From a virus (Duplodnaviria; Heunggongvirae; Uroviricota; Caudoviricetes; Crassvirales), in the IMG/VR virus record IMGVR_UViG_3300008267_000092, positions 24,022 through 88,021 of that record: a stretch of DNA of 64,000 nucleotides; one strand, given 5' to 3'. The position numbers and the translations under genes were made by a program. Shown here piece by piece: positions 1-42,207 of the stretch. How positions within the stretch are numbered: position 1 is the first letter of the stretch; the number at the start of each line of letters is the position of its first letter. The notes under the pieces are model-generated. The model saw only the letters and a program-made list of their open reading frames with translations. It searched no databases and was not told the DNA's origin.

Positions 1-4
1 TAAA

Positions 5-3000
5 ATGTTTACAGGAGATGTTGCATTTTATAAGAATATGATTGATTATAAAAAACGTGTACCTGCAACATATACGGATGGATTACAGTTGCGATTGAAA
101 AAAGGTGAAGAACATTTTACAGTAGCTACAATTGATAAGGTAGAAATAGGTTCACCATACCATAAGGAATTAGTTGAAATGTTAGGTGTTGAAGGTGCTA
201 AACCATATAGTGAAGGTAAGATAAATTCTGCGGATGCTCAAGCTTGGATAACACCTAAAAGGTGGAAGTTTTTAGTTGAACGTTTAGGTAAATGGACTTC
301 GGATCACGACTCATTGTACACTAAAATGATGTCTGATGGTGATCAGTCTTATACAGCTAAAGAATTAAAGATTGCAGCGCAACCTTTAAAAGGTGTATAT
401 TTTTATATGAACGGTAAAACACCAACGTATCTTAAATACTCACAAGCTGTATTGACACCTAGTATGTTAAAAAACTCACCTGGTTTACGATCTATTTATA
501 GTCAAATGGATAAACAAGGTGTTGACGAATTAATTACATTAGATGGCTTTAAAACAGGTTCTCCAAGACCTACAAGAGTACATAATGTTGACGGTACAGT
601 AAAATCTGAAATATCATTTAATACTGAACAGTTATCAAACTATGGTTGGAAATTACAACAAGATTTACCTGTTAAAACATTTAAACAAACTGACGTAGGT
701 TCTCAAATTCAAAAAAATATTTTTGCAGGTTTAATTCACAATTTAGAATTAGCAGGATTTAATTTAGATGGTTCTGAAACAAACGGACAAACAATCTCAG
801 ATAATATTGTAAATATTGTTTCAGGTTTAGTAGATAAAGGTATTTTAGACATTAAAGAGGAATTTGATGTATTTAGAAACGGTGAAATTAAAAACATTAA
901 GGGTTTTTATAAAGCACTTGTTCGTGAGTTGGAAAAAAGAGGTGGTTCTAAGAATGTTATAGACGCTTTAAATAAACAAACTGCATTATATGGTATGCCA
1001 CAATCAATGGATAAGATTGTTAGTGTATTTTCATCTATAATGAATGATCGTTTAATTAAAATTAAAACAAACGGTGGTGCATTTATACAAATGTCTAACT
1101 TTGGTATATCTAAAGAAGAAGGTGATAGTAAAGGTATTTTATGGAACCCTGATATTGAAAATGGTAGTACAACTTATGAACCACGTATTTATACTAAAGA
1201 AAATGGTCGTAAAAGTATAAAACCTGCAGGTATATTAATTTCAGGTTCATTTATTGCAAAATATATTCCTGATTATAAAAAATATAGTGCTGAAGAACTT
1301 TTTAAAGGTAAAGATGGTAATCCACCTATTATTGATAAAAAAATATTAGAAAATTTAGTTGGTTATAGAATTCCTAATCAAGGACTGTCATCAAATGATG
1401 CTTTAGAAATTATAGGTATTTTACCTGAAGAAAACGGTGATACTATTGTAGCATATACAGGTATTACAACTAAGACAGGGTCGGATTTTGATATTGATAA
1501 GATGTACTTAATGATGCCTAATTATTCTTTAGAGGATGATAGATTGGTATATACTACATACGATTCAACGTTATCAAATAAAAAACAATCTAAAGAAGCA
1601 TTACAAAATAGGTTAATTGAACTATATAAATCAGTTTTAACACATCCAAAAGTTATTAAAGATGTAATGACACCTTTAGATAATGATGTCTTAAAAGACG
1701 ATATCGTAGACTTAATACCTTCAGAGTCTTCAGGAACAATGTTTCATTTTGACGCATTTAATGATATTAAATTACGATATGAGTTTATTAATGGTAAAGC
1801 AGGTGTTGGTCAAGAAGCTAATGCTGTAGTTGATGTTAATAGACCTGGTAATTTAAGTATTAATAAATATAATATTGGATGGGGTCATGTTAATGAAAAA
1901 GGTGATACTAAATTAGATAACGAGTATTCTGAAGCATTATCTGAACAAGATTTAAATTATTATAAAGATGCACTTGTTGATATAAAAATAAAAGAGCTTG
2001 AAAAGAAACAGATGCATGTTAATAACGATGTTAGAGAAAAGATAAAAAAAGAGGTTTCTAACTATGTTAATAACGCAGTTAAAAAAATAAAAGTTGGTGA
2101 TTCATTAACTGCGATTCTTAATGCATTTGTGGATATTGCAAAAGATCCTTATATTACAAGAGGTAACTGGACAACATCTACTACAAATACAGGTAACTTA
2201 CTTATACGTGCAGGTGTTCACCCTTTATATGTTACGTCATTTATGGCACAACCTATAATTAAAGAATATATTGAGTATCAAGCAAGTAAAGAATCTATTA
2301 TTACAAAGAATACAGGTGATATTAAAAATAAATTTAAGAAGAATTTAGCAGTAAAGAATCTTGAAAAATTAAACGATAAACATCCTGAGTTATTGAAACC
2401 TTTAGAATTGATTTATCAAAAATTTGCTAAGTCTAATGGTGCTATAAATCCTTTTACAGCATCAAACGCGGCAGAAAGACTTCAAAAAATGTTAGGTAAA
2501 AAAAATACACTATCTGGTGAAGAATTAGAAAATGTATTGATAACATTAAAACGTGAACATGATAGAGTATTTAATGCTGAAAAATTAAATATTACAGATA
2601 GAAAAACTTATAATTTACAACATTATCGTGAACAAATAAAGAATGAGGCTTCTGCAGATTTTCAAATTGCGATATTAGATAAGTTTTACGAATTACAGAC
2701 CGTTAGTAAAGTAGTTAAAGAAAATGTAGATATTTCTAAATTAGATACTAATGGTATGGGTAAAAATGTTAATTCATTATTTAGCACCTTTAATTTAATT
2801 AAACACGTTTTAGATAAGGAGAAAACAGATAGAGTTGGTGTACTTAACGGTTTGGAATCTAAATTTGAAAATACAACTTTAGCTGTATATCATAAAGGAT
2901 TAAAAGAAATTTTAAGAATTGTTCAAGCAAATCCTTTATTATTTCCTCAAGCGGATAATAAAGTTCAAACAATGTTTAATGAGATATCTAATGACCTATA

Positions 3001-6000
3001 TGACACACCTGCAATTGATAAAGATTTAGTAAATGATTTAGAAAAAGAATATTATACTTATGTAATGTCTAATTTTACACCATTTAATTTAAGTTCTGTT
3101 GAAATAAGAAACTTATTAAGTGAATTACCTGTTGAATTTGAAAATTTTAAAAAGGCAAATAAAGGTAAATATGTGGTTATAGATGAGCTTCTAAATAAAT
3201 TTGATAAAAATTTTAAGTTAATAACTTTAAATAACAGAAAAAAATCAAGTTCTTTTGAAGAAAAGTTTACAGATTCTTGGAGAGATTTAATTACAGATCA
3301 TCCTGAATTTGCAGAAAATTTAATTAAATATTCATTTTTAACTTCAGGTTTTCAAATGAATACTAATCAGTTTTTTACATATATTCCCCATGAGTATTTA
3401 TTACAAAATAACATAAATCAATTTATTGTTAATTTTTCTAGACAGGATCAATTCGATTTCCTTGATAAATTTTACTTAAATAACACTGATAATTATAAAT
3501 ATGTACCTAAAGTATTTGATTCTGAAATTCAATCTGAAGATTTAACATCAGGTTTCACTTTAAAACAATCTGATAAAAGTGAAACAGGTAAAGCTCGTTA
3601 TTACGTATCGAGAGATGCTGGTGGAGGTATTTATAAACTAGAAGGGTATGATTCATTTAATAGAGCAATTTATACAAGAATTAAAGCATTAGGTCAAAAA
3701 CGTAAAGGTAGTACAATTGTTGAATATGGTGATCAATTTACAAAATCAAATCTTGAAACTAGTCCTGAATATATCACAAGATTAAAAAATTCAGTAGTTA
3801 CTGAACGTGATAAATATAATCCTAATTTTACTTTAGATAAAATTGCAGATAGAGAAGAAGATGATTCAACTAACGGATTAACTATAGAAGAACCTACTCA
3901 ACCATCTACTAGTATTTCTGAGTTTGATATAGCTGATAAATTATCACCTATAGAACAAAACTTTAAAGATGGTACAGGTGGTAGAAAAATGCAACCACAG
4001 TTTAAAGGTAAATCTACTATGGATCTTATTATATCAGGAGATAGAACTAGAACTACTAGAGCTAAAACTGATATACAAAGAATGACTAAAGATTATGGTT
4101 TATCTAAAATATCAGATCTTGTTGGTAAAGTTATAAGAATGACTGATAATACAGGAAGACAAGTATATACTATGATTACTAATGTAGTTCCATTTACACA
4201 AGAATATCAAGATGCTACGTGGCAAAATGAAGGTTGGGAAAAGTCTGTAACAGATAAACATGTAAATGATTATCCTTATGCAATTGAATTTAAAGTTGTA
4301 GATAAACCTACTCAACCATCTACTACTCAGGTAGAATCAGTTACGACTGAATTAACTCCAGGACAATATGTTAAATATAATGGTGAAACATACATTATTG
4401 TAAAACAGAATGCAAATGGAACATTTCAGATTTTAAATCCTACTTTAGAAGGTCCTTTATCTAAAATATCAGTTTCAAAAGAAAAACTTCAAGCAATCGG
4501 TAAAGAGGCAAAATTGGTTACCTATAAAGGTGTAGAATATTTAGTTACACCTAATAATACAATTATATCTACAGTTACCAATAAGGCGATGAATTGGACT
4601 GAAAATGATGGTAATAGACGTGCTATTTTAGAATTAGCTAATAACAATATCAAATCGTCCGATAAAATTGAAATTCCAACTGTTGAAAAAACTGTAGTTA
4701 GTAAACTTCAAGAAGTTACGATTTTTAAACCTGCAAATAAAGAGCAAGAGGTTGCAATTGAAGCTATTAAGGATTTTATTGAAAATGGTAATCCTAAAGA
4801 GATATTTACTTTAGAAGGTAAAGCTGGTACTGGTAAAACAACGTTAGTTCAAGAGGCATTAGCAGATTCTGTAGAAAAAGGTAAAAATATTCACATTGCG
4901 GCATTGTCACATAAAGCAAAATTAGTTTTAGCTCAAAAATTAGAACAAAGATTTCCTAAAAAAATAAGTAGTAGTAGTATTGCTGGTTTATTAGGAATGA
5001 AAATGAATGAGGAAACTGGTGAGTTTGAAACAGGATTTAGTGAGTTTGAAAGACCTGTAGAATCTGCAGATATTATTGTTATCGATGAAGCATCAATGGT
5101 AAATGAAGAAGCATTATCTTTAATTATGAGTGAAAAAAGATATGGTACTAAAGTTATATTTCTAGGTGATAGAGGTCAATTACCTCCTATTAGAAAATTA
5201 TCGAGTGATGAAATAAGTACAGTATTTGAATCTTCAAACAAAGCAAGTTTAGTTGAACGTGTAAGACAAGGTGAAGAATCTCCAATATTACCATTTGCTG
5301 ATTATTTTTGGGATAATTCAGAATCTGATAAACCTAAAGCGAATCCTATTCCTGAAGGTCAAATAAAAGATTCTTTAACAAGTAAAGGTAATTTAGTATT
5401 TGTAAATAATTTATTTGATGTGTTTGAGGATGTTGTAAGTAGTTTTAAACAGGGTATAGATTCTGGAAACTTCAACATAATTAAAATTGTAACATATAAA
5501 AATGCTACTAGGCAAAATTATAATAAGCAAATTAGAAAATCAATATTTGGAGAAGATGTACCTCAATTTGTGGTAAAAGATCAAATTATGTTTCAAAATA
5601 ATTACATGTCACAAGGTGTTGAATTTTCTAACAGTGATGAATTTTCAATTGAAGCCGTAATAACTTCTGAAAAAAATGGATATAAGGTATTCGATATAGG
5701 TGTTAAAGTAGATCCTACTAAAGATATAATTACTTATTTTTCAGTATTAGCTGAAGAAGATAAGTCTAAATTTAACGAAGAAGTGGCTAGATTATTTGAA
5801 GTGGCTAAAAAAATGGCACCTGGACAACTTAGGAAAATGGCATATAAAAGTGCATGGGCACTTAAAGCTACATTTGCGGAAATAGATTACTCTTATGCAA
5901 TAACATCACATAAATCACAAGGTTCAACATACGATAATGTTATTGTTGATTTAAAAGATATTTATTCTGTAGGTGCAACCACAAACGCATCTAAATCTCG

Positions 6001-6175
6001 TAGTGCTTATACAGGTTTAACAAGAGCTAAAAATACAGCAATTATTATAACAAGTAAGGCTGAAACTAATAGTGACAATGTTAAAAAAGCTTTAAACACA
6101 ATACCTCAAACAACTTTAACTAAAGAAGAGCAGACAAAGGCTGAAGAATTAAAAAAATATTGTAACCCAAGTTAA
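5..6175 (+). CDS. giant multidomain protein (5' partial, >=2056 aa): N-terminal/central region with RNAP-like DxDxD loop, C-terminal RecD/Pif1-like SF1 helicase domain
   Basis: uninterrupted ORF starting at window edge; SDFDIDKM (nt ~1480-1503) resembles the NADFDGDQM catalytic loop of two-barrel RNAPs; C-terminal GKAGTGKTT (Walker A, nt ~4820-4846), IVIDEASMV (Walker B), GDRGQLPPI, SHKSQGSTYDNVIV (SF1 motif VI-like, nt ~5905-5945). Confidence 0.6.
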   Translation: MFTGDVAFYKNMIDYKKRVPATYTDGLQLRLKKGEEHFTVATIDKVEIGSPYHKELVEMLGVEGAKPYSEGKINSADAQAWITPKRWKFLVERLGKWTSDHDSLYTKMMSDGDQSYTAKELKIAAQPLKGVYFYMNGKTPTYLKYSQAVLTPSMLKNSPGLRSIYSQMDKQGVDELITLDGFKTGSPRPTRVHNVDGTVKSEISFNTEQLSNYGWKLQQDLPVKTFKQTDVGSQIQKNIFAGLIHNLELAGFNLDGSETNGQTISDNIVNIVSGLVDKGILDIKEEFDVFRNGEIKNIKGFYKALVRELEKRGGSKNVIDALNKQTALYGMPQSMDKIVSVFSSIMNDRLIKIKTNGGAFIQMSNFGISKEEGDSKGILWNPDIENGSTTYEPRIYTKENGRKSIKPAGILISGSFIAKYIPDYKKYSAEELFKGKDGNPPIIDKKILENLVGYRIPNQGLSSNDALEIIGILPEENGDTIVAYTGITTKTGSDFDIDKMYLMMPNYSLEDDRLVYTTYDSTLSNKKQSKEALQNRLIELYKSVLTHPKVIKDVMTPLDNDVLKDDIVDLIPSESSGTMFHFDAFNDIKLRYEFINGKAGVGQEANAVVDVNRPGNLSINKYNIGWGHVNEKGDTKLDNEYSEALSEQDLNYYKDALVDIKIKELEKKQMHVNNDVREKIKKEVSNYVNNAVKKIKVGDSLTAILNAFVDIAKDPYITRGNWTTSTTNTGNLLIRAGVHPLYVTSFMAQPIIKEYIEYQASKESIITKNTGDIKNKFKKNLAVKNLEKLNDKHPELLKPLELIYQKFAKSNGAINPFTASNAAERLQKMLGKKNTLSGEELENVLITLKREHDRVFNAEKLNITDRKTYNLQHYREQIKNEASADFQIAILDKFYELQTVSKVVKENVDISKLDTNGMGKNVNSLFSTFNLIKHVLDKEKTDRVGVLNGLESKFENTTLAVYHKGLKEILRIVQANPLLFPQADNKVQTMFNEISNDLYDTPAIDKDLVNDLEKEYYTYVMSNFTPFNLSSVEIRNLLSELPVEFENFKKANKGKYVVIDELLNKFDKNFKLITLNNRKKSSSFEEKFTDSWRDLITDHPEFAENLIKYSFLTSGFQMNTNQFFTYIPHEYLLQNNINQFIVNFSRQDQFDFLDKFYLNNTDNYKYVPKVFDSEIQSEDLTSGFTLKQSDKSETGKARYYVSRDAGGGIYKLEGYDSFNRAIYTRIKALGQKRKGSTIVEYGDQFTKSNLETSPEYITRLKNSVVTERDKYNPNFTLDKIADREEDDSTNGLTIEEPTQPSTSISEFDIADKLSPIEQNFKDGTGGRKMQPQFKGKSTMDLIISGDRTRTTRAKTDIQRMTKDYGLSKISDLVGKVIRMTDNTGRQVYTMITNVVPFTQEYQDATWQNEGWEKSVTDKHVNDYPYAIEFKVVDKPTQPSTTQVESVTTELTPGQYVKYNGETYIIVKQNANGTFQILNPTLEGPLSKISVSKEKLQAIGKEAKLVTYKGVEYLVTPNNTIISTVTNKAMNWTENDGNRRAILELANNNIKSSDKIEIPTVEKTVVSKLQEVTIFKPANKEQEVAIEAIKDFIENGNPKEIFTLEGKAGTGKTTLVQEALADSVEKGKNIHIAALSHKAKLVLAQKLEQRFPKKISSSSIAGLLGMKMNEETGEFETGFSEFERPVESADIIVIDEASMVNEEALSLIMSEKRYGTKVIFLGDRGQLPPIRKLSSDEISTVFESSNKASLVERVRQGEESPILPFADYFWDNSESDKPKANPIPEGQIKDSLTSKGNLVFVNNLFDVFEDVVSSFKQGIDSGNFNIIKIVTYKNATRQNYNKQIRKSIFGEDVPQFVVKDQIMFQNNYMSQGVEFSNSDEFSIEAVITSEKNGYKVFDIGVKVDPTKDIITYFSVLAEEDKSKFNEEVARLFEVAKKMAPGQLRKMAYKSAWALKATFAEIDYSYAITSHKSQGSTYDNVIVDLKDIYSVGATTNASKSRSAYTGLTRAKNTAIIITSKAETNSDNVKKALNTIPQTTLTKEEQTKAEELKKYCNPS

Positions 6176-6177
6176 TT

Positions 6178-6681
6178 ATGGAAAATAATAAGAAAAAATT
6201 ATTAAACGATAAAGTTATTAAAACTTTAAATTACAGAATACAACAAGAAGAATATTCTTCAAGAATTTACGAACAATTATCATTATGGTTAAACAATAAA
6301 GGATATTTAAATTTTGCAGAGTTGTTTAAGAAATATTCAGAAGAAGAATTAGTACATGCTAAATTTTCTAAAGATTTTCTATTAGATTATGGTATTACAC
6401 CTTGTCTTGAAGCGTTACCTTCTCCTGAAATGGAAATAGAGTCATTATTAGACGTTTTAGAAGCAGCTTATGAACATGAGCTATTAGTTACTCAACAATG
6501 TGAAGAACTTGCCTCTATGGCTTTAAAAGAAGGTAATCACGTGTTATATCAATTAGCATTAAAGTACTGTGCTGAACAACAAGAAGAGATTGGTAAAGTT
6601 ATTACAAATTTAGATATTTATAAACTAAGTACTGACATGTTGGTTATTGACCATTATGTAGGTGAAAAACTGTTAGGATAA
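6178..6681 (+). CDS. ftn: ferritin (FtnA-like non-heme ferritin, ferroxidase-centre residues conserved)
   Basis: 167 aa; collinear similarity to E. coli FtnA from memory (LNYRIQQEEYSS / SEEELVHAKF / YEHELLVTQQCEELA / AEQQEE), with the ferroxidase-centre positions (E, ExxH, E, QxxE) occupied. Confidence 0.8.
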   Translation: MENNKKKLLNDKVIKTLNYRIQQEEYSSRIYEQLSLWLNNKGYLNFAELFKKYSEEELVHAKFSKDFLLDYGITPCLEALPSPEMEIESLLDVLEAAYEHELLVTQQCEELASMALKEGNHVLYQLALKYCAEQQEEIGKVITNLDIYKLSTDMLVIDHYVGEKLLG

Positions 6682-6682
6682 T

Positions 6683-9600
6683 ATGGTGTGTCCAAATAAA
6701 AGATTAAAGGCTTGGAAAGATTTAGTTAAAGTTGTAGGGGAAGATAAAGCTTATCTTTTATGGGATACCCATGAAGGAAATGTCCCACAACAATATTACA
6801 ATGAACAAAGTATTAATGAATCTGCTACTTTGGTAGCAGGTTCTAATATTTCTGAAGAAAATTTATTTCAATCTACTGTAGATTTTAATGATTTAATTGG
6901 AAATACCAACGAATCTATTTTTACAGATGGTTTTGAAAATAAATCAATTGATTCTGATTTAGGTAAAATAACTGATATTTTATTTAATGGTAATGTTGGT
7001 AATTTAAGAGTTGAACATATTTTAAATAATATTATAGAAAATGTACCTGATATTACAGAACATACTGCTGAAATTATTAACAGGTCTAAAAAACTTTTAA
7101 CTCGTGCAAATGTTAAAGTTGAATTAGTTAAAGATTCAGAAATGGTGTCTAATAATACTGTAATGCAGTATGAAGCTAATACAAATACTATTCAAATATC
7201 TTTAGATAGAATAAACCAATTTGATTCTAAAACTGTAGTTGTTGGATTTTTACACGAAATTGTACATAGTTTAACGGTACAGGCATTAGCTAAAGATCCA
7301 TCTAAAAGAACATTTTCAGAACAAGAATTAGTTGATGTTGTTGAAAACTTTTTAAAAAAATATAAAGACAGTAAATTAACTGAAGAATACGGTTTTAAAG
7401 ATAGGTTTGAATTTGTTGCAGAATTTTACGCAAATCCTGAATTTAGAGATGCTGTTAAAGCTGAATCAGATATTTGGTGGAAAAAAATAGTTGATGCTAT
7501 TAGGAGATTATTTGATGTTGCTAAAAATCCTGAATACACTAAATTATTTGACACTATTATTAAATATGTAGAAAATGATAATGTTGATTTAGAACATATT
7601 GAAAATTTAGATATAATATTTAGAAAAGAAGCAGAATATAAAAAACCTGAATTTGTTACATTTCAAGATAAATTAGATCGATTAAGTGGTAAAGCTATTG
7701 ATAATATTGCACAAGCTAGAGCTCGTACAGCAGCTTCTAAGAAAGCTAAATCTAAGAAGGATCAAAAGACTCATCTAAAGAATATTGATGACTTAATTGA
7801 GGAAATGGATAAGCTTAGTGAGATTAATAAATTACAAGTAATTGCTCAATATACAAATACATTAGCTAAAACGATTTATCAAATAGATAATGGTATGAAA
7901 CGTCTTTATACTAAAACTAAAGATTTTAGAAAAGAGGATTTACTTCCATTATTACAGAGTTATGAAGAGTACTTATTAGCTTACGATTTAACGAATGAAA
8001 TTAATGAACTTCTTGCTGCTTCTCGTAGAGAACTTAAAGTATTATCTGAAGAAGATCAAAAGTCATTAGATGAGATACGTAAAACACTTTCTTATGCTAT
8101 AAGTAGACGTGATGAGCTTGTTAAAGAATTTGTTGATTTAAAAAGAGAACAAGCGGTTAAGGTTTTTGCTAAACCTGAATATAATACCCAAGTTGAAACT
8201 GATTTTAGAAATAGATTATACAAGGAATATGCACAATTAAATATTCAAGGTGAATCGCGTGATCAGTATGTATCACGAATGTTAGCTACAAGAGATAAAG
8301 ATGAATATGAAAAAGCATTAGTTGCTTCTGCTGAAAAAATGATTAACAATCCTTCTTTAGATATAAGTTCTTTTAAAGCAAAATTTTCGGATCATTTAAA
8401 TATTAGTAGTAAACTTATTCAAATTATAACCAATATTACAAGTGCAGTAAGAGAAAAAATTACATCACAGTATAAGGATTATGATTTAATGTTAAATGAC
8501 CTGTTTAAAGATTTGGTAAAAGAAAAAGGTAATAAAAAACCTTCTGAGGCATTTAAGAATATATATGAGCAAGATAAAGACGGTAATTATTTCTTTAAAG
8601 GTGTGTATAGCATTAAATTTAGAGATATTTATTTAGAAGAATACATTCCATTAAAACAAGCGTTATCTGAAATTACTGAAAAATTAAAATTGCAGGGATT
8701 AACTAAAAAAGAATATCTTACAAATGATGAATATAAACAAGCTGATGCAAATGCAAAAGCTTGGATGAAAAAACATACACTTAAAGATCACAATGACCCT
8801 ACAGGTAAAGCTTGGTATCCTAGACCTATTTATAAGAATGCTGAGGTTACAGGTATGGATAAACAAGTTTTAAAAGAAGCAATCGCTTTAGCTAAACTCG
8901 GACATAAAGAATTTAAAGGTAAAAGGTCGTTAATTAGAAAAACAGGTAATGTCCAATTTTATAAGTTTCCAGCTATTACAAAATCTAATTTTGAAAGAGC
9001 TGTTGAAATGGATGCAAAAGGTATTGTTAAAGATATAAAAGCTGATTTAACTGAAATTAGACCTGATGATATAGGATATGGTGAACCTGTATCTAAAACA
9101 GGTGAATCTTTAAAAAGTATTAAAGTGCATTTTAGAGGTGAATTGAGTCCAGACCAACAATCTTTAGATGTTCTTTCAATACTTCGTAAAGAATATTTAA
9201 ATGTTATTAGTTATAAAGAAAAGTCAAAAGAAGAGGCTTCTATCTTATTAGTTGCTGATATTTCTAAAAATAAAGAATATCTACAAATATCTAAAAAAAC
9301 AGGATTACCATTATTAAATGCTTTTAATAAAAATGAACCTATTGAAACAATGTCAGGTGAATTTACAAATGAGTATTTGAAAATTAAAGGTATTATTGAA
9401 AGAACGGTATATGATACATTTCACGAACATGGTGGTAATTTTAGTGGTGTAGATATAAATAAAATTACAAGTTATGTCAATGGTATGACAGCTACAATCG
9501 CGATGTCTTTTGATATCGCATCAGGTACAGCAAACGTACTTAATGGTTTTACACAATTATTTATTGAATCCGTAGGTGGTGATGTATTTAGTACAAAATC

Positions 9601-10804
9601 ATTACTAAAAGCAGAGGCTAAATATACTTCAGATATGCCTAATATTTTACGTGATTTAAGTAGCCCTGTAAAAACTTCATTTACAAATCAATTATTAGAA
9701 ATGTATGATGTTTTTGGTGGGTTTGACCCTGCAACTCAAGAGTTTATTAGAAATAGTGTTGCTAAAAAATTAGCATCTAGACAAACATTAAATGGTTTGA
9801 ATGAGATGGGTGAACATGCTATGAACTCTGTAGTAACAATGAGTGTATTAGATGGTCTTAAAGTAATGAATGCTGAACATAAATATATTGACAAAGATGG
9901 TAAAATTGTAGATTCTGAAAATGAAGCAGCATCGTTACTTGATATGCTTATATTTAATGACAAAGGTAAGTTGGTAATGAGTGATAGTGTTAAATTTACT
10001 AAACAAAATTTAACTGTCGATTATCATAAGGGTGGTAAAGTTCACGTTAACTTATTAATCAAAAATAAAATATTTGATGTATTTGGTGTATATGATAACA
10101 ACTTTAAAAATGAATTTTCAAAAACTGTATTAGGTAAACTTACGATGATGTTTAAAAACTTTTTCCTAAGTGCTGCACAATATAGATTTACAGGTATTCA
10201 AACATCTTTAAAAAGTAAAGAAGATTTAACTGATGATGATTTAAATTATAACACAGCTAAAAAAGAATATACTGAAGGTACTTATGTCACGTTAATTCGA
10301 TATTTTAAAGAAGCTGTCATACCTGCGTTAAAAAATCTTGAATTAATGTATGTTAAAGAGGTATATAGTGGACTATCTGATCATGAAAAAGCAAACCTTA
10401 AAAAAGTAACGGTTGAAATAATGTTAACGTCTATTATTATACCTGCAATAGGTGCATTGATTGCATCGGCTGCAGGACCAGATGATGATGAAACATGGTT
10501 TATGGTTTATCAATTACGAAGACTTGAATCAGAATTATCTCAATTTAGAAACCCAATTGAGGCAGGTAAGATTATTACAAATCCTATTGCTGCAGTAAGA
10601 TTACTTCAACATGGTTTAAGTTTTGCGTATGAAGTTGCAACACCTTTGGATTTTGCACCAGATAAAGGTGATCATTTCTTTTCATATTTAAATGAAGATT
10701 CTAAACATCAAAACATTTTACTTAAAAAAGGTAAAAAAATAGTTCCAATTTGGTCAAAAATGGATCGTGATTATAAACAACTTTATTCACTTATTAATAA
10801 GTAA
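6683..10804 (+). CDS. giant protein (1373 aa) with HExxH zincin-like metallopeptidase motif and C-terminal hydrophobic segment; probable virion/ejection protein
   Basis: long ORF; VVGFLHEIVHSLT (HEIVH) at nt ~7250-7270; predicted TM helix IMLTSIIIPAIGALIASAAG near C-terminus; coiled-coil-rich central part. Confidence 0.5.
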   Translation: MVCPNKRLKAWKDLVKVVGEDKAYLLWDTHEGNVPQQYYNEQSINESATLVAGSNISEENLFQSTVDFNDLIGNTNESIFTDGFENKSIDSDLGKITDILFNGNVGNLRVEHILNNIIENVPDITEHTAEIINRSKKLLTRANVKVELVKDSEMVSNNTVMQYEANTNTIQISLDRINQFDSKTVVVGFLHEIVHSLTVQALAKDPSKRTFSEQELVDVVENFLKKYKDSKLTEEYGFKDRFEFVAEFYANPEFRDAVKAESDIWWKKIVDAIRRLFDVAKNPEYTKLFDTIIKYVENDNVDLEHIENLDIIFRKEAEYKKPEFVTFQDKLDRLSGKAIDNIAQARARTAASKKAKSKKDQKTHLKNIDDLIEEMDKLSEINKLQVIAQYTNTLAKTIYQIDNGMKRLYTKTKDFRKEDLLPLLQSYEEYLLAYDLTNEINELLAASRRELKVLSEEDQKSLDEIRKTLSYAISRRDELVKEFVDLKREQAVKVFAKPEYNTQVETDFRNRLYKEYAQLNIQGESRDQYVSRMLATRDKDEYEKALVASAEKMINNPSLDISSFKAKFSDHLNISSKLIQIITNITSAVREKITSQYKDYDLMLNDLFKDLVKEKGNKKPSEAFKNIYEQDKDGNYFFKGVYSIKFRDIYLEEYIPLKQALSEITEKLKLQGLTKKEYLTNDEYKQADANAKAWMKKHTLKDHNDPTGKAWYPRPIYKNAEVTGMDKQVLKEAIALAKLGHKEFKGKRSLIRKTGNVQFYKFPAITKSNFERAVEMDAKGIVKDIKADLTEIRPDDIGYGEPVSKTGESLKSIKVHFRGELSPDQQSLDVLSILRKEYLNVISYKEKSKEEASILLVADISKNKEYLQISKKTGLPLLNAFNKNEPIETMSGEFTNEYLKIKGIIERTVYDTFHEHGGNFSGVDINKITSYVNGMTATIAMSFDIASGTANVLNGFTQLFIESVGGDVFSTKSLLKAEAKYTSDMPNILRDLSSPVKTSFTNQLLEMYDVFGGFDPATQEFIRNSVAKKLASRQTLNGLNEMGEHAMNSVVTMSVLDGLKVMNAEHKYIDKDGKIVDSENEAASLLDMLIFNDKGKLVMSDSVKFTKQNLTVDYHKGGKVHVNLLIKNKIFDVFGVYDNNFKNEFSKTVLGKLTMMFKNFFLSAAQYRFTGIQTSLKSKEDLTDDDLNYNTAKKEYTEGTYVTLIRYFKEAVIPALKNLELMYVKEVYSGLSDHEKANLKKVTVEIMLTSIIIPAIGALIASAAGPDDDETWFMVYQLRRLESELSQFRNPIEAGKIITNPIAAVRLLQHGLSFAYEVATPLDFAPDKGDHFFSYLNEDSKHQNILLKKGKKIVPIWSKMDRDYKQLYSLINK

Positions 10805-10810
10805 AAGTCA

Positions 10811-10855: not shown

Positions 10856-10857
10856 TT

Positions 10858-15316: not shown

Positions 15317-17044
15317 TTATCCTTCACACATTACACATTCAGAATATAAATCTCTTTGTTGTGCAGAATCTGCTCTCAAATTAGATTCACTTCTAAAATA
15401 ATAAAGTGATTTTAAACCAACTTCCCATGCTCTATAATGTACTAAATTAATAAATTTAGCGGGAGCATCTTGTGAAAATGCTAAATTTATAGATTGTCCT
15501 TGATCTAAATATTGTTGTCTAAGACCCGCTTGATTTACCAATTCTAATTGGTTAATTTCCTTAAATGTTCTGAAAACTTCTTTTTCTTCATCTGATAAAC
15601 ATCGTACATTTACCACAGAACCTTTATCTTCAATGATTTGGTCCCATACTTCAGGAATATTACGTTCTTTACGTTCAAGTAATTTTACTAATTCAGGATT
15701 TCTTCTAATATGTAAACCTTTAGCATCGTCATCAACATAAATGTTTGCTGCGATTGGTTCTACACCTTGTGATAAACCACCTGCAAGTTTTGATGAGCTT
15801 CTGTTAGGTGCAATTGCAAGTAGTGTAAGATTTCTTTTACCTGTACCTTTACACCATTCTGGTTCTCCATATATTTCAGCTAATTCTTTAGATGCTTCCT
15901 CAGCTTGACTACGAATCTGACCAAATATTTTATTAGTTTGACCATTTGCATATATCGAAATAAAAGGAATATTTTTAGATTGTAAATATGTATGATAACC
16001 TAATGTCCCTAAACCTAATGCTCTACTTTTAATTGCAAATCTTGTAGCATCTTCAATACCTTTAATATGTTGTGATTTTTGAATAAATTCTTCAATTACA
16101 GCATCTAGAAAATAAGTTGCTAATTTTACAGTGTTTGTATCTTTCCATTCATCAAATTTGTATAAATTTAACGAACTTAAACAACATACTAATGTGTGTT
16201 CACCGTCTGTTGGTAAAAATATTTCACTGCAAAGATTTGAATGTTTAATTTTTAAATTGTTTCTTTGCCAATTTTCAGGTAAATTACGATTTGCATTGTC
16301 AATAAACATCACATAAGGTTCACCTGTTTTAACACGTTTTTTAAGTGTGTCAGTCCATAATTTACGTTCACGACCATCTGATGCTTTTACAGCACGCATA
16401 AAGTTATCTGTAACTACTGCACCTTGATGAATATTATGACATTGTCTATTAATATCACCTTTAGGTTCTCTAATTTCAAGAAAATCAGGATATTCTTTAT
16501 GCTCAATGTCTAAATACATTGCTACAGCACCACGTCTTAATTTACCTTGTTTCGATGATATAATTGTACTATCGTAAGATTTCATAAATGGTATAATACC
16601 ATCAGATGTACCTAATTCACCATTTTTAATAGGTGTACCGATAGGTCGGACAGCACTAAAATCATATGCTGTACCTCCACCATGTTTAGATAACATACGC
16701 ATTTCCAATTCTTTACGTCCAATATCGTACATATCGTCAGGAACAACCCCACTAAAACATGAAATTGGTAATCCTTTATTTGTACCAAAACTAGACATTA
16801 CAGGTGTTGAAGGTATTAACCAACCATTCCAAAATATAGTAAAGAAATCCTCATATAATGCATCGTTATTTAAAAAATGACATGCTGTTTTAGCTAGTCT
16901 TTCATACGCGATACGAGGTGTTTCATTTTTTTGAAGATAACCTCCTTTTATAGTTGTTAAATATAAATCATTATTACCCCATTCAGGATAATCTTTTCCT
17001 ACATTCCATCCTAATTCTTTAGCTATCTTATGTTCTTCAATCAT
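15317..17044 (-). CDS. nrdA: ribonucleotide reductase large subunit (class I, no ATP-cone)
   Basis: NLCSEI, CCLSSLNL, YYFRSE, C-terminal CVMCEG (CxxC tail). Confidence 0.85.
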   Translation of the reverse strand: MIEEHKIAKELGWNVGKDYPEWGNNDLYLTTIKGGYLQKNETPRIAYERLAKTACHFLNNDALYEDFFTIFWNGWLIPSTPVMSSFGTNKGLPISCFSGVVPDDMYDIGRKELEMRMLSKHGGGTAYDFSAVRPIGTPIKNGELGTSDGIIPFMKSYDSTIISSKQGKLRRGAVAMYLDIEHKEYPDFLEIREPKGDINRQCHNIHQGAVVTDNFMRAVKASDGRERKLWTDTLKKRVKTGEPYVMFIDNANRNLPENWQRNNLKIKHSNLCSEIFLPTDGEHTLVCCLSSLNLYKFDEWKDTNTVKLATYFLDAVIEEFIQKSQHIKGIEDATRFAIKSRALGLGTLGYHTYLQSKNIPFISIYANGQTNKIFGQIRSQAEEASKELAEIYGEPEWCKGTGKRNLTLLAIAPNRSSSKLAGGLSQGVEPIAANIYVDDDAKGLHIRRNPELVKLLERKERNIPEVWDQIIEDKGSVVNVRCLSDEEKEVFRTFKEINQLELVNQAGLRQQYLDQGQSINLAFSQDAPAKFINLVHYRAWEVGLKSLYYFRSESNLRADSAQQRDLYSECVMCEG

Positions 17045-17059
17045 ATATTATTTGTTTAA

Positions 17060-18019
17060 TTAAAATAAATCATCATTCCAATCCTCATTGGGTTTTGCAT
17101 AACCTGTTTCCCTATTAGCAAAAAAGTCTGTTTGCTGTTCACCTGAAATCATAATATAAAACCAACTCATCCTGTCTAATAACTCTTTATCTACAGCATA
17201 TTTAGGTTTTAAATTTAATTCTACAAGCTTTCTATTAGCTCTATCATACATAAAATTCTTCAATTCGTCTTTAGTTATTGTATCTAAATCACCCATTTCA
17301 AAAATCTTATTAATGTATGAGAACTCGTTACGAATTGCTAATTCTACACCTTCATATAAATCAGCACGTAATTTATCTGTCCATAATTCAGGATTTTCTT
17401 CAATAACCGTTCTAAATAATTTACATCCTGCTTCAGAGTGTAATGACTCATCACGACACGAAAAAATCATTTGCTGACCTATTCCTGTTAAACGGTTAGA
17501 TCTTCTAAATGATAGTAATACTGCAAACGAACTAAATAATTGAACACCTTCAGCACACGCACTAAATAGAGCAATGCTTTTTACAATTTCAGATAAATCT
17601 GTAGTATTAGGGTTTATAGACATTAAAACTTTAAGTTTATTCATTATAGTTTCATCTTCGAGAAACGCTTCAAAATCATCTAAACCTAATGTATCATTTA
17701 AATAACTATATGCTGTAGCATGAATATCTTCCCATGAACCAAAACCTTTAGACATCATTTTAATTTCAGGTATGGGGAACCATTTTGGAACATACGATGA
17801 CCAATAATCACCTACTTCACATTCCGTTTGAGTAAACCCTTTAAGAATATTACCAATAACGTTTTTTTCATTTTCGTTAAGATTTTCATTCCAATCTTTA
17901 ACATCTTGTTGCATGTTAATTTCTGTATGTAACCAATGTGCATTTTGCTGTGCAAACCAATAATCATAAGCCCACTGATATTCAAAAGGTTTAAAAGCTA
18001 TTCTTTTTTTATTTATCAT
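17060..18019 (-). CDS. nrdB: ribonucleotide reductase small subunit
   Basis: ferritin-like diiron motifs (DESLHSEAG), C-terminal aromatic tail ...WNDDLF; adjacent to nrdA. Confidence 0.8.
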   Translation of the reverse strand: MINKKRIAFKPFEYQWAYDYWFAQQNAHWLHTEINMQQDVKDWNENLNENEKNVIGNILKGFTQTECEVGDYWSSYVPKWFPIPEIKMMSKGFGSWEDIHATAYSYLNDTLGLDDFEAFLEDETIMNKLKVLMSINPNTTDLSEIVKSIALFSACAEGVQLFSSFAVLLSFRRSNRLTGIGQQMIFSCRDESLHSEAGCKLFRTVIEENPELWTDKLRADLYEGVELAIRNEFSYINKIFEMGDLDTITKDELKNFMYDRANRKLVELNLKPKYAVDKELLDRMSWFYIMISGEQQTDFFANRETGYAKPNEDWNDDLF

Positions 18020-20528: not shown

Positions 20529-21998
20529 TTATATAAAAGGGTTAGATAAATAATCCGAAATGAGATCTTCTACACTTGTTGTAGTTGAAATTTCAGATAT
20601 TTTACTATACCAGTCAAAATAACTATGATTACCATAGTCTTCCTCATCAAATAATACACCTTTTAATTTTGAAAAATGGCAAGTATTCTCTTGTCTAGTT
20701 AAAATATAGTTGACCAGTCTATCATATATTGAGTATCTGTAAGATATATTATTTCTATTACAGTAATCTTTAATAATATACATTAAGCGATTTTGATTCT
20801 CACTACAATTTAATGCATTACCTTCTAGAATATTTTTAGTGTTTATTTTAGCATAATCTACAAGTATTGTACTTAATAATAAAAACATTGAAATTTTAGA
20901 CATATCATATGTTGGAGTATGAATTCTAAATTCAATTGTAGTTTTATTACCAAAAATTAAAGGTATTAAATTATGTATGAAATAACGATGTTTTATATTC
21001 CACTTTTGATTACCACTTGGATCATTTGGGTGATGAGTAACATTATTTAAATCGTTATTAAAATCATAAAATGAAACACCTCCTGACAAATAACTAAATA
21101 AAACATTAAAGTTATAATCAATATTTTTAGAAGTTATTACAGGATCCATTTTTGAAATTAAAGAATATGTAGGATAAGGTTTACTATAATTCTTATTTTT
21201 AATATTAAAATTATATTTTTTATATAACGGAAATAATTCAAAAATGTCGTCTTGTATAAAAGTTGTTAATTTAAAAAATGCTAAAATAAATTCTTTTGTT
21301 CTAGGTACATTTCCAATATGCATATGAAGAGCACAGCTATTATCAAATTCAGTTCTTTCTTTTAGAGCTTTTGTTGTATCAAATAGTGTCTGCACCCCTT
21401 TTACACCTTGTAATGGAATTGTTACATATTCAATACCTGAAATACTACCGTCACGTAAAGGAATTAATCCTAATTTATCTGTAATTCTTTGAGGTATGTA
21501 ACCTTTAATTGTTTCAAATTCAAGTCCAAAAGTGTAATCTTTTAAAGCTTTTCCAACCTCATTAGAGCCATGTAATACTTCAAATTCATATTTTGAGTTA
21601 TATCTCTGAATGTGTGAAATGTGAAAATAAAGACCCGATGATAATTCTTCACGATATTTTTTATTTTGAATTAAAATGTTTTCATTCATCGCAGGTATCA
21701 CGATTCCGTGTTTATTTTCAAAATACATAACGTGATTTGATCTCTGGAACCAACCTATTTTGTCATTTTCAATTAAACCTGAGAGTAAATTTGCATTTTT
21801 AAGAGTGTATTTCTTAAATGTATTACAATATACAATATTACCTTTTTCAACACGGTAATACTTATCATTAATTTTATAACAATCCCCTGAATTTTCAATT
21901 TCAGGATCTCCGATTTTATAATATTTACCTTCAAAAATTCTTGTTTTAGAAATAGGTAGAGACTCACCACTTACAGTTGTTACTATTTTTTCAATCAT
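20529..21998 (-). CDS. GCS2-like carboxylate-amine (COOH-NH2) ligase / amidoligase paralog with ~145 aa N-terminal extension
   Basis: FGLEFET (GvEeEf-like N motif) and ALHMHIGN (GxHxH motif), same motif pair as 23889-24686. Confidence 0.45.
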   Translation of the reverse strand: MIEKIVTTVSGESLPISKTRIFEGKYYKIGDPEIENSGDCYKINDKYYRVEKGNIVYCNTFKKYTLKNANLLSGLIENDKIGWFQRSNHVMYFENKHGIVIPAMNENILIQNKKYREELSSGLYFHISHIQRYNSKYEFEVLHGSNEVGKALKDYTFGLEFETIKGYIPQRITDKLGLIPLRDGSISGIEYVTIPLQGVKGVQTLFDTTKALKERTEFDNSCALHMHIGNVPRTKEFILAFFKLTTFIQDDIFELFPLYKKYNFNIKNKNYSKPYPTYSLISKMDPVITSKNIDYNFNVLFSYLSGGVSFYDFNNDLNNVTHHPNDPSGNQKWNIKHRYFIHNLIPLIFGNKTTIEFRIHTPTYDMSKISMFLLLSTILVDYAKINTKNILEGNALNCSENQNRLMYIIKDYCNRNNISYRYSIYDRLVNYILTRQENTCHFSKLKGVLFDEEDYGNHSYFDWYSKISEISTTTSVEDLISDYLSNPFI

Positions 21999-22005
21999 TG
22001 TTTAA

Positions 22006-23877: not shown

Positions 23878-23888
23878 AATTTATTTTT

Positions 23889-24686: not shown

Positions 24687-24705
24687 ATTTTTAATAATGT
24701 TTAAG

Positions 24706-41730: not shown

Positions 41731-41788
41731 CGTCTCCAAACATCATAGGATATACCCTGAGTTTGGAGACGGTGGGATTCGAACCCAC
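41731..41788 (-). pseudogene. tRNA 3'-half remnant (T-arm + 3' acceptor strand) fused to an 11-bp hairpin in the 5' leader of the HNH gene
   Basis: reverse complement GTGGGTTCGAATCCCAC-CGTCTCCA...; CGTCTCCAAAC pairs with downstream GTTTGGAGACG; no D/anticodon arm upstream. Confidence 0.5.
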
Positions 41789-42207
41789 GTCGATCAATGC
41801 GTTTGTTATATAATTTTATACAGCTTTTTGTAGTATTTAATCTTTAATGTCCCTTAAACACTACTAAATGTGGACAGCTATGGCAATGTTATACTCTAGC
41901 CAGTGTTGAGTTTGATTTGGGATTAGCGCACACGCGAATTCTAATTTACCAAATCATTTTAAACTATGCTGCCATTAATACTTCTTCTTTAGAAGAGTTA
42001 ATCAATGAAAAAACTTTAGCCATATTGGCTTTTGCTTGATTTTTGCCGTTTAAAATATTCACCTTAGTTTACAGTTATCTCTCTGGCTGAATTATATAAT
42101 TACTGACACAACCTCAAAGCCAGTCGTCCCCTTATTAATTGTTTAAAGTACAATCATAAACTTATTATTAGAAGGTGACACTTAATGTAATCACCTTCTA
42201 TAATTTA

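What the first reader, a model, noticed from the sequence alone, without database searches (positions are those of the whole stretch)
6178..6681. Phage-encoded bona fide ferritin wedged between two giant virion-type proteins
The 167-aa ORF aligns collinearly with E. coli FtnA, and the ferroxidase-centre positions (E, ExxH, E, QxxE) are occupied. It lies between a >2000-aa and a 1373-aa protein on the same strand with overlapping or abutting stop-start junctions, so it is probably co-expressed and perhaps co-packaged with them. A catalytically intact ferritin in a virion or ejection module is unusual. It could deliver or sequester iron for RNR or a 2-barrel polymerase, or protect injected proteins from Fenton chemistry.
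Basis: partly seen in the sequence, partly recalled or inferred. Interest (0 to 1): 0.75.

Follow-up and report, generated by a model that had tools for sequence, protein, structure and literature searches.

The report
Ferritin gene inside crAss-like phage virion operon
A crAss-like phage carries an intact iron-storage ferritin gene between its virion RNA polymerase gene and a second virion-protein gene; relatives of this ferritin sit in the virion-gene blocks of at least 187 uncultured phage contigs and are better conserved than the capsid genes, but whether the protein enters the particle is untested.

Summary
ORF 6178..6681 (+, 167 aa) is a canonical bacterial-type non-heme ferritin. It matches Pfam PF00210 at E 3e-20. 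Its AF2 model (pLDDT 94) superposes on E. coli FtnA at TM 0.9 and rmsd 1.3 A. Every ferroxidase and site-C residue is present.

The window is a Crassvirales phage; its capsid protein is 63% identical to that of Cellulophaga phage phi14:2. The upstream giant gene is the gp66-type virion RNA polymerase (DFDID motif) fused to an SF1 helicase. The downstream gene is the gp65-type zincin-motif virion protein. The gaps are 2 nt and 1 nt. In phi14:2 and crAss001 these two genes abut with no ferritin.

The ferritin is old and strongly selected:
- dN/dS is 0.04, against 0.28 for the flanking genes.
- It is 44-56% identical across phages whose portal and capsid proteins are only 21-33% identical.
- At least 187 IMG/VR contigs carry a relative. 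In all 80 examined it lies co-directionally inside virion-gene arrays, in at least four different slots, and never in the replication module.

My best reading is an active ferritin co-expressed with virion proteins that sequesters iron during particle production. Packaging as capsid cargo is plausible (about 0.3) but untested. I found no paper describing it.

The parts
2..6175 (+). Giant gene, cut by the left edge of the window. It is a phi14:2 gp66-type virion two-barrel RNA polymerase fused to a C-terminal helicase.
   Evidence: BLASTP against gp66 residues 876-2086: 36% identity, E 3e-126. tblastn against phages gives gp66 as the top hit. The homologous ORF in L001, the locus with a 95%-identical ferritin, is 2611 aa.
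1484..1498 (+). DFDID catalytic motif of the virion RNA polymerase.
   Evidence: Regex hit at residue 495 of the translation from base 2. gp66 carries 1361-DFDID-1365, which is essential for activity.
4613..6076 (+). Dda-like SF1 helicase domain at the C-terminus of the giant protein.
   Evidence: PF13604 E 3.9e-19 and PF13538 E 2.6e-08. phrog_325, Dda-like helicase, E 8.5e-77, residues 1537-2024.
6173..6180 (+). Stop-start junction between polymerase-helicase and ferritin: TAA, 2 nt, ATG.
   Evidence: Read directly from the sequence.
6178..6681 (+). Non-heme (Ftn-type) ferritin: 167 aa, 19.4 kDa, pI 4.8.
   Evidence: Homology and structure. Size and charge. dN/dS 0.042 against L001.
6247..6249 (+). 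E24 codon (FtnA E17, ferroxidase site A).
   Evidence: Alignment. Invariant in 119/119 relatives.
6268..6270 (+). Y31 codon (FtnA Y24, the conserved tyrosine near the di-iron site).
   Evidence: 119/119.
6343..6357 (+). E56-E57-L-V-H60 (FtnA E49, E50, H53: site C, the bridging Glu, and the site A His).
   Evidence: E57 and H60 are 119/119. E56 is E or D in 117/119.
6478..6480 (+). E101 codon (FtnA E94, site B).
   Evidence: 119/119.
6574..6588 (+). E133-Q134-Q-E136-E137 (FtnA E126, Q127, E129, E130: sites B and C).
   Evidence: E133 and Q134 are 119/119, E136 is 115/119, E137 is 118/119.
6679..6685 (+). Stop-start junction between ferritin and the gp65-like gene: TAA, 1 nt, ATG.
   Evidence: Read directly from the sequence.
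6683..10804 (+). phi14:2 gp65-type 'RNA polymerase-associated' virion protein, 1373 aa.
   Evidence: BLASTP against gp65: 26% identity over about 1340 columns, E 5e-100. tblastn. gp65 is a virion protein by MS.
7253..7267 (+). HEIVH zincin-type motif in the gp65-like protein.
   Evidence: Regex hit at residue 191. It aligns with LHEIMH of gp65. The gp65 zincin-like domain is described in the paper.
17060..18019 (-). Class I ribonucleotide reductase small (di-iron) subunit. It is the only obvious iron-dependent phage enzyme in the window and a possible client. It is context, not part of the operon.
   Evidence: PF00268 E 2.5e-61. The large subunit is at 15317..17044.

Best explanation
The gene encodes a catalytically competent, cage-forming non-heme ferritin that an environmental lineage of crAss-like phages has kept for a long time. 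It is transcribed, and probably translationally coupled, with the virion RNA polymerase-helicase gene and the gp65-like virion-protein gene. By analogy with phi14:2, it would be made in the middle-to-late phase by the host RNA polymerase, when virion proteins accumulate.

In the infected cell it would oxidise Fe2+ at its di-iron centre and lock the iron away as a mineral core. This would limit Fenton damage to replicating and packaging DNA and to the large cargo proteins, and/or hoard iron released from the dying host.

Shown: ferritin identity, intact active site, strong purifying selection, operon embedding, and recurrent placement in virion-gene arrays.

Inferred: 24-mer assembly, timing of expression, and the physiological role.

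Packaging into the particle is not required by this explanation. It is treated as the main rival or extension.
For: Ferritin identity and structure.

Active-site residues are invariant or nearly so in 119 relatives down to 44% identity.

Selection:
- dN/dS is 0.042, against 0.28-0.29 for the two flanking genes in the same genome pair.
- G+C is 27.5%, the same as the flanks, so this is not a recent arrival.
- The ferritin is 52-56% identical where portal, MCP and TerL are 32%, 26% and 29%. It is 44-50% identical where portal and MCP are 21-24%.

Operon embedding: junctions of 1-2 nt here and -1 to +11 nt upstream in most of the 80 loci. No terminator-like site lies at either junction, and promoter-like sites are no more frequent than in shuffled sequence.

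The orthologous block g065-g067 of phi14:2 is middle-class, stays active late, and is transcribed by the rifampicin-sensitive host RNAP.

Distribution: at least 187 IMG/VR contigs carry a relative. In all 80 examined the gene is co-directional with, and inside, virion-gene arrays.

The protein is acidic (pI 4.8, net charge -12) like cellular Ftn, and has no Dps-like basic tail.

Precedent: ferritin-superfamily stress genes (Dps, Mn-catalase) are known in other phages (PMC8008677).
Against: No expression, assembly or activity data exist for any member.

A purely cytoplasmic auxiliary gene does not obviously need to sit inside virion operons in four or more different slots. That pattern fits a particle-associated role at least as well.

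Close relatives phi14:2 and crAss001 manage without it. No crAss-like record in GenBank phages has it. The function is therefore conditional on a habitat that I could not identify.

The NCBIfam equivalog model for enterobacterial FtnA is not reached (75.5 bits against a cut-off of 178). It is therefore a divergent ferritin, not an FtnA orthologue.

The window's subclade has a 4-residue deletion in the D-E loop. Its effect on cage assembly is unknown.
Confidence: 0.55

Rival explanations
1. Virion cargo. The ferritin is loaded into the capsid cargo zone with the RNA polymerase and the gp65-like protein. It could enter as a roughly 470 kDa cage that stays in the head and scavenges iron and peroxide near the packaged DNA and cargo. 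Alternatively it could enter as subunits that are extruded and refold in the next host. Either way the particle would be an iron-carrying HK97-fold shell, analogous to an encapsulin with ferritin-like cargo.
For: The gene sits between two genes whose orthologues are MS-verified virion proteins.

In other crAss-like lineages the ferritin lies directly after the portal gene, directly after a tail ring 3/4 homologue, or between other giant genes. It is always in virion arrays.

A ferritin of type C origin (79% identical to that of L083, while the portals are 24% identical) was transferred into a type B-like genome, L069. It again landed between portal and MCP.

Type B and type C ferritins carry N-terminal extensions of about 15 aa and 25-50 aa. 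In type C there is a semi-conserved 'xLKRxLK' start followed by a Pro/Thr/Ala/Lys-rich linker. Ferritin N-termini face the outside of the cage; this is established knowledge, and the N-terminal antigen fusions among the PDB hits illustrate it. The extensions could therefore be tethers.

The crAss001 capsid has a cargo zone of about 5.1 MDa, and cargo sets vary among crassviruses (PMC10172136).
Against: There are no proteomic data.

The window's own ferritin has almost no extension (7 aa) and no recognisable targeting peptide.

A 12 nm cage cannot pass tail constrictions narrower than 50 A, so a loaded cage could not be injected.

The protein is strongly acidic, which is unfavourable next to DNA.

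No fusion of this ferritin to a giant virion protein appears among the best 150 representatives, although the neighbouring giant genes fuse and split freely.

Gene position alone does not prove packaging.
Confidence: 0.3
2. Iron depot for phage enzymes. The ferritin buffers or donates iron for the phage's own di-iron ribonucleotide reductase small subunit, or other iron enzymes, in an iron-poor habitat.
For: The RNR small subunit (PF00268, E 2.5e-61) and large subunit are encoded about 9-12 kb away in the same genome. The nearest cultured relative is a marine phage.
Against: phi14:2 has the same RNR pair and no ferritin.

In phi14:2 the RNR genes are in the early replicative module, while the polymerase block is middle/late. 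The ferritin would therefore be made after RNR is needed, unless it is injected.

Ferritins store iron rather than hand it directly to RNR. No reductase or release partner is seen beside the gene; the small ORF downstream in type B phages has no Cys cluster and no Pfam hit.
Confidence: 0.1
3. Structural repurposing. A ferritin-fold protein is used as a building block or spacer of the particle, with no iron chemistry.
For: Its position in structural modules.
Against: Ten of ten catalytic and site-C positions are kept in 119 relatives down to 44% identity. That is not expected if only the fold mattered. The fold is indistinguishable from active ferritins.
Confidence: 0.03
4. A neutral passenger or a recently captured host gene (moron) with no role for the phage.
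For: GIY-YIG-like ORFs lie beside the ferritin in L003 and L045 (identified by eye from the motif, with no Pfam hit). One clear inter-phage transfer was found.
Against: dN/dS is 0.04. Base composition matches the flanks. The gene is present in at least 187 viral contigs, and ferritin identity tracks portal identity (Spearman 0.73). A motif scan of 185,579 species genomes found only two loci, one of which is itself a mis-binned phage contig.
Confidence: 0.02

Closest known systems
Bacterial non-heme ferritin, Ftn (E. coli FtnA, PDB 1EUM/9BYE; Pfam PF00210)
   Same: Same five-helix fold (TM about 0.9, rmsd 1.3 A). Same intrasubunit di-iron centre plus site C: E17, Y24, E49, E50, H53, E94, E126, Q127, E129, E130 are all matched. 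Similar length and acidity.
   Different: Only 28-30% identical. It falls below the NCBIfam FtnA equivalog cut-off. It is phage-encoded and sits inside a virion-protein operon. It has a 7-aa N-terminal extension and a 4-aa shorter D-E loop. It belongs to a phage-restricted subfamily.
Phage-encoded Dps and Mn-catalase (Lactobacillus phages; 'Gratiaviridae' gut phages, PMC8008677)
   Same: These are ferritin-superfamily genes carried by phages and interpreted as oxidative-stress protection.
   Different: They are Dps-type (12-mer, intersubunit site, DNA-binding) or catalases. This one is a maxi-ferritin of Ftn type with an E helix and no basic tail. No virion-module placement is mentioned for them in the passage read.
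Crassvirus cargo/ejection block (phi14:2 gp65-gp66-gp67; crAss001 gp45-gp50)
   Same: The ferritin lies inside this block, between the gp66 and gp65 orthologues, on the same strand with 1-2 nt gaps.
   Different: Neither cultured phage has a gene at this junction: gp66|gp65 and gp50|gp49 abut. No ferritin has been reported among crassvirus virion proteins (literature searches).
Encapsulin nanocompartments with ferritin-like cargo (HK97-fold shell plus Flp/EncFtn)
   Same: An HK97-fold shell gene and a ferritin-family gene lie in one structural operon. In some lineages the ferritin carries a short terminal peptide plus linker, as cargo-loading peptides do.
   Different: Encapsulated ferritins are open, non-cage oligomers that rely on the shell for storage (my own knowledge). 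This is a complete cage-type ferritin in a genuine virus, and encapsidation is unproven.
Ferrojan Horse hypothesis (iron bound in phage tail fibres; Bonnain, Breitbart and Buck 2016)
   Same: It links phage particles to iron budgets.
   Different: That idea concerns a few structural iron ions in tail proteins used as a receptor lure. A ferritin could hold thousands of iron atoms (my own knowledge), and nothing here points to receptor mimicry.

Membership tests
Non-heme ferritin (Ftn), Pfam PF00210 | Sequence match above the curated family threshold | tested here: met
   72.9 bits against a cut-off of 24.5, E 3.3e-20.
Non-heme ferritin (Ftn), Pfam PF00210 | Four-helix bundle with a long B-C loop and a short fifth (E) helix | tested here: met
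   AF2 pLDDT 94.2. Helices at 11-41, 44-70, 90-117, 121-150 and 154-166. TM 0.89-0.92 to 1eum/9bye.
Non-heme ferritin (Ftn), Pfam PF00210 | Intrasubunit ferroxidase centre: site A (E17, E50, H53) and site B (E50, E94, E130, with Q127), plus Y24 | tested here: met
   E24, E57, H60, E101, E137, Q134 and Y31 are present. They are 118-119 of 119 in relatives.
Non-heme ferritin (Ftn), Pfam PF00210 | Third iron site C typical of prokaryotic Ftn (E49, E126, E129, E130) | tested here: met
   E56, E133, E136 and E137 are present.
Non-heme ferritin (Ftn), Pfam PF00210 | Assembly into a 24-subunit cage and mineralisation of iron | not testable with these tools
   Only a monomer could be modelled. This needs SEC-MALS or cryo-EM plus iron-loading assays.
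Enterobacterial FtnA orthologue (NCBIfam NF007638, equivalog) | Score at or above the equivalog cut-off | tested here: not met
   75.5 bits against a cut-off of 178. It is a divergent ferritin, not an FtnA orthologue.
Dps (mini-ferritin) | No E helix, a short helix in the B-C loop, an intersubunit ferroxidase site, and often a basic DNA-binding tail | tested here: not met
   An E helix is present and the B-C loop is unstructured. The intrasubunit Ftn ligands are present. All 50 top PDB fold hits listed are ferritins, none a Dps. Phage Dps models match only at TM 0.5-0.6. pI is 4.8.
Bacterioferritin (Bfr) | A second ExxH motif (E127/H130) in helix D | tested here: not met
   Helix D reads E133-Q134-Q-E136-E137, with no His. 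The Bfr motif is from my own knowledge of E. coli Bfr.
Crassvirales virion cargo proteins | Gene located in the cargo/virion-RNAP block, co-directional with it | tested here: met
   The same slot is used in about 20 related loci.
Crassvirales virion cargo proteins | Detected in purified virions | not testable with these tools
   No cultured phage has the gene: only two remote hits (26-30% identity) in 50,697 phage records.
Crassvirales virion cargo proteins | Broad conservation across the order | tested here: not met
   Absent from phi14:2 and crAss001 at this junction and from all crAss-like GenBank records.
Encapsulin-type cargo | A short conserved terminal targeting peptide joined by a flexible linker | tested here: inconclusive
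   Type C relatives have such an N-terminal arrangement. The window's protein has only MENNKKK.

The most novel reading that the evidence does not exclude
The ferritin is a genuine component of the crass-like virion. A ferritin cage, or its subunits, would be loaded into the HK97-fold capsid's cargo zone along with the virion RNA polymerase. These abundant environmental phage particles would then carry a mineralisable iron store. That would make them a viral counterpart of encapsulin-ferritin nanocompartments and a much larger iron reservoir per particle than the tail-fibre iron of the Ferrojan Horse hypothesis. The N-terminal peptide-plus-linker in some lineages would be the loading signal.
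Probability: 0.27. Interest if true: 0.85.

Novelty: new member of a known kind. Interest (0 to 1): 0.55.

Why it matters
Ferritin is ordinary. A phage family that keeps it under tighter constraint than its own capsid, portal and terminase genes, and always inside virion operons, is not.

If it acts only in the infected cell, it is a clear case of a phage managing host iron and oxidative stress during particle production. It is then a new auxiliary function for Crassvirales, an order mostly studied in the gut, where this gene is absent.

If it is packaged, phage particles would be mobile iron stores. That would bear on colloidal iron budgets in water and sediments. It would also be a living link between viral capsids and encapsulin-ferritin compartments.

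Either way the hypothesis is directly testable once one ferritin-bearing phage is isolated or the 167-aa protein is expressed.

Tried and rejected
- Nucleotide search of 5000-12000 against GenBank phages: no match.
- tblastn of the ferritin against 50,697 phage records: only two remote hits (26-30% identity) on short unannotated human-faecal contigs, and no crAss-like record.
- Promoter/terminator scan of 4500-11500: no more sites than in shuffled sequence and none at the gene's borders, so it gives no information beyond 'no obvious own signals'.
- Search for ferritin fused to giant virion proteins: none in the top 150 representatives. The longer hits (P0194, P0240, P0250, P0261 and others) show only a ferritin domain, and P0195 adds a lumazine-synthase fragment.
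- Search for an iron-release partner such as Bfd. The conserved 68-69 aa ORF after the ferritin in type B phages has no Pfam hit and no Cys cluster. It is absent from the window at phmmer E<1.
- Dps and bacterioferritin readings: rejected on structure and ligands.
- Habitat. Sample labels (GROS21-1_SAMEA9561428, IMG taxon numbers) could not be resolved, and the literature search for 'GROS21' returned irrelevant papers.
- AFDB50 fold search, meant to find the nearest cellular donor lineage, was not available.
- Literature. 'phage-encoded ferritin' returned 0 papers and 'Crassvirales' plus 'ferritin' returned 0. Of the 4 papers holding 'crAss-like' plus 'ferritin', I read the ferritin passages of one only, and it concerns Dps and Mn-catalase in Gratiaviridae.
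- The p-value printed for the ferritin-portal correlation is not valid, because the pairs are not independent. Only the trend and the L069 outlier are used.
Full report
**1. The observation**

ORF 6178..6681 (+) is real: 167 aa, ATG start, TAA stop. It matches Pfam Ferritin PF00210 at E 3.3e-20, with 72.9 bits against a cut-off of 24.5. It matches solved bacterial non-heme ferritins at E 7e-21 to 1e-17. The alignment to E. coli FtnA (1eum) is gap-free over residues 9-139 at a constant offset of +7.

An AF2 model built on 25 family members has pLDDT 94.2. It shows the five ferritin helices: A 11-41, B 44-70, a long B-C loop, C 90-117, D 121-150 and E 154-166. Its best PDB fold matches are FtnA 9bye/1eum and Vibrio, Thermotoga and archaeal ferritins, at TM 0.88-0.92 and rmsd 1.3-1.8 A over about 160 residues.

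All ligands are present: E24, Y31, E56, E57, H60, E101, E133, Q134, E136 and E137. These correspond to FtnA E17, Y24, E49, E50, H53, E94, E126, Q127, E129 and E130. Three points place it in the Ftn type:
- It has an E helix and intrasubunit ligands, so it is not Dps.
- Helix D reads EQQEE, not ExxH, so it is not bacterioferritin.
- It is acidic (pI 4.8, net charge -12, 19.4 kDa), like FtnA.

It does not reach the NCBIfam equivalog cut-off for enterobacterial FtnA (75.5 against 178 bits). It is a divergent ferritin, not an FtnA orthologue.

**2. The surroundings**

The window is a Crassvirales genome. TerL, portal and MCP match crAss-type PHROGs. The MCP is 63% identical to that of Cellulophaga phage phi14:2 and 47% to that of crAss001. 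Ring 3/4, auxiliary capsid and tail hub A Pfam families are present.

The upstream giant ORF is cut by the left edge of the window. The frame is open from base 2, and the homologous ORF in L001 is 2611 aa. Its first roughly 1230 residues align with residues 876-2086 of phi14:2 gp66, the virion two-barrel RNA polymerase (36% identity, E 3e-126). It carries the catalytic DFDID motif. gp66 has 1361-DFDID-1365, which is essential for activity and Mg-dependent. Residues 1537-2024 form a Dda-like SF1 helicase that gp66 lacks.

The downstream 1373-aa ORF aligns over almost its whole length with phi14:2 gp65 (26% identity, E 5e-100), and the HExxH motif is aligned.

gp65, gp66 and gp67 are in phi14:2 virions by MS. 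Their genes are middle-class and still active late. [quoted passage not shown] The crAss001 orthologues are capsid cargo.

In phi14:2 (g066|g065) and crAss001 (gp50|gp49) the two genes abut, with nothing between them. The ferritin is therefore an insertion at exactly this junction. The gaps are 2 nt and 1 nt. No terminator-like site lies at either junction, and promoter-like sites are no more frequent than in shuffled sequence.

**3. The family**

The word-indexed protein search found 133 clusters at E<=1e-5, of which the best 120 are 43-95% identical. Many lie on contigs of 90-130 kb. JGI's pipeline already labels them 'ferritin'.

In 119 relatives the catalytic positions are invariant (E24, Y31, E57, H60, E101, E133, Q134) or nearly so (E56 E/D, E136, E137).

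An IMG/VR scan with a family alignment found 187 viral contigs with a relative, and 80 loci were fetched. A motif scan of 185,579 species genomes found only two loci. One is a 104.8 kb contig with RNAP|ferritin|1658 aa that has been binned into an Omnitrophota MAG; it is clearly a phage.

An exhaustive HMMER search gave 17 representatives at E<=1e-30. Below that, hits run continuously down to ordinary ferritins at about 30% identity. No fusion to a giant protein was found.

**4. Genomic slots**

In every locus examined the ferritin is co-directional with, and inside, virion-gene arrays. The slot differs:
- **Type A** (21 loci, including the window's relatives): RNAP(-helicase)|Ftn|gp65-like.
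- **Type B** (35 loci): TerL-portal|Ftn|(68-aa ORF)-roughly 377 aa-MCP. The upstream overlap is almost always -1 nt.
- **Type C** (23 loci): MCP-roughly 340 aa-roughly 80 aa-ring 3/4 homologue|Ftn|roughly 450-570 aa-roughly 185 aa.
- **Type D and others**: between other giant ORFs (1543|Ftn|969-1007, 2639|Ftn|517, and L007).

It is never in the opposite-strand replication module. Placement in virion arrays could be chance for one insertion, since these arrays are roughly half of such a genome (my estimate). It is less likely to be chance for four or more slots.

**5. Selection and history**

- Between the window and L001, ferritin dN/dS is 0.042. The two flanking genes give 0.28 and 0.29, though their dS is near saturation.
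- Ferritin is 95% identical where the flanks are 63%. It is 52-56% identical where portal, MCP and TerL are 32%, 26% and 29%. It is 44-50% identical where portal and MCP are 21-24%.
- Its G+C and GC3 equal those of the flanks.
- Pairwise ferritin identity tracks portal identity (Spearman 0.73, trend only). This indicates mostly vertical descent.
- L069 is a clear exception: its ferritin is 79% identical to that of L083 while the portals are 24% identical. That is a transfer between distant crass-like phages, and it again landed between portal and MCP.
- GIY-YIG-like ORFs lie beside the ferritin in L003 and L045. They were recognised by eye; the L003 ORF has no Pfam hit and the L045 ORF was not scanned. 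They may help such moves.

**6. Termini**

Compared with FtnA, type A proteins have 0-8 extra N-terminal residues; the window has MENNKKK. Type B have about 15. Type C have 25-50, with a semi-conserved start (xLKRxLK) followed by a Pro/Thr/Ala/Lys-rich stretch. Ferritin N-termini point outward from the cage. This is established knowledge and the basis of N-terminal antigen display, and one search lists such fusions. These extensions could be tethers, which is inference. The window's subclade also has a 4-residue shorter D-E loop. The model still superposes on FtnA through helix E.

**7. How it most likely works**

Shown:
- An intact, strongly constrained Ftn-type ferritin.
- Embedded without its own signals in the virion-RNAP operon.
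- Recurrent placement in virion modules.

Inferred:
- It assembles into a 24-mer.
- It is made in the middle/late phase.
- It oxidises and stores Fe2+.

My preferred reading (0.55) is that it works in the infected cell while virions are built. It would remove Fenton-active iron near replicating and packaging DNA and the large cargo proteins, and/or hoard iron.

The main rival (0.3) is that it is itself capsid cargo. The crAss001 cargo zone of about 5.1 MDa would hold a 0.47 MDa cage. However, constrictions narrower than 50 A would stop a cage from being injected. The window's protein has no evident loading peptide.

Iron supply to the phage's di-iron RNR is possible but poorly timed, and phi14:2 does not need it. 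A non-catalytic structural role and a neutral-passenger role are disfavoured.

**8. Comparison and novelty**

As a protein it is a new, divergent member of a well-known family. Phage Dps and Mn-catalase genes are known (PMC8008677). A few metagenomic phage 'ferritins' exist in BFVD at 20-24% identity, and PHROG 16594 ('unknown function') covers this family. I found no paper on a ferritin in crAss-like phages.

Three things are new: the scale of the family, constraint stronger than on hallmark capsid genes, and consistent placement in virion operons. Absence from gut crass-like phages would fit an oxidant-dependent function, but the habitat could not be established.

**9. Verdict**

Novelty: new member of a known kind. 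Interest: 0.55. The packaged-ferritin reading has a probability of about 0.27 and would be of high interest.

Noticed in passing
window 41763..42131 (-): A full-length tmRNA gene in the phage genome. Rfam RF00023 gives 55.3 bits against a gathering score of 47, E 5.7e-19, matching model positions 1-374. ARAGORN also calls it, with an unusual tag peptide ending ...EEVLMAA.
   Followed up: partly
window 2..6175 (+); L002, L011, L014, L091: The gp66-type virion RNA polymerase is fused to a C-terminal Dda-like SF1 helicase, which phi14:2 gp66 lacks. In L002, L011 and L014 the helicase part is a separate ORF of 803-994 aa. In L091, which has an identical ferritin, the gene is called as 893+770 aa with an overlap. 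The fusion is therefore variable, or involves a frameshift or an assembly error.
   Followed up: partly
window 51431..52897 (+): A GroEL-like chaperonin gene lies directly upstream of TerL (phrog_5725, E 1.5e-122). In L069 a GroES (Cpn10, E 5.5e-23) gene lies directly after the ferritin.
   Followed up: no
window 20529..25398 (-): A cluster of amidoligase, COOH-NH2 ligase and glutamine amidotransferase genes: phrog_2443, PF14395, and PF07722/PF00117, plus an N-terminal GATase-like 623-aa protein. This suggests a peptide or nucleotide modification pathway.
   Followed up: no
L069 9552..9959; L080/L081 10495..10923: A second, small ferritin-like gene lies immediately beside the ferritin in some crass-like phages: DUF5856 (PF19174) at E 7e-16 and 3e-12, with a weak PF00210 match. 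It is absent from the window.
   Followed up: partly
L024, L045 and about 18 other type B loci, directly downstream of the ferritin: A conserved 68-70 aa ORF (MSLIHEV.QILWV.TPHGDG...) always follows the ferritin in the portal-adjacent arrangement. In L069 its homologue (8438..8647) lies upstream, just after the portal gene. It has no Pfam hit and no Cys cluster. It may be a functional partner.
   Followed up: partly
L003 8825..9556; L045 9414..9956: ORFs with GIY-YIG-like N-terminal motifs lie next to the ferritin. They were recognised by eye; Pfam found nothing for the L003 ORF, and the L045 ORF was not scanned. They are possible homing endonucleases that could mobilise the adjacent gene.
   Followed up: no
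L088 (JALNZI010000005.1, 104,799 bp): A contig deposited as part of a Candidatus Omnitrophota MAG carries RNAP-homologue|ferritin|1658-aa ORF and has crass-phage genome size. It is most likely a phage genome that was mis-binned.
   Followed up: partly
Type C loci (e.g. L060, L071, L074, L083), ferritin N-termini: N-terminal extensions of 25-50 aa with a semi-conserved 'N-[VIM]-L-K-R-[ST]-L-K' start and a low-complexity Pro/Thr/Ala/Lys linker. This resembles a targeting-peptide-plus-linker layout.
   Followed up: partly
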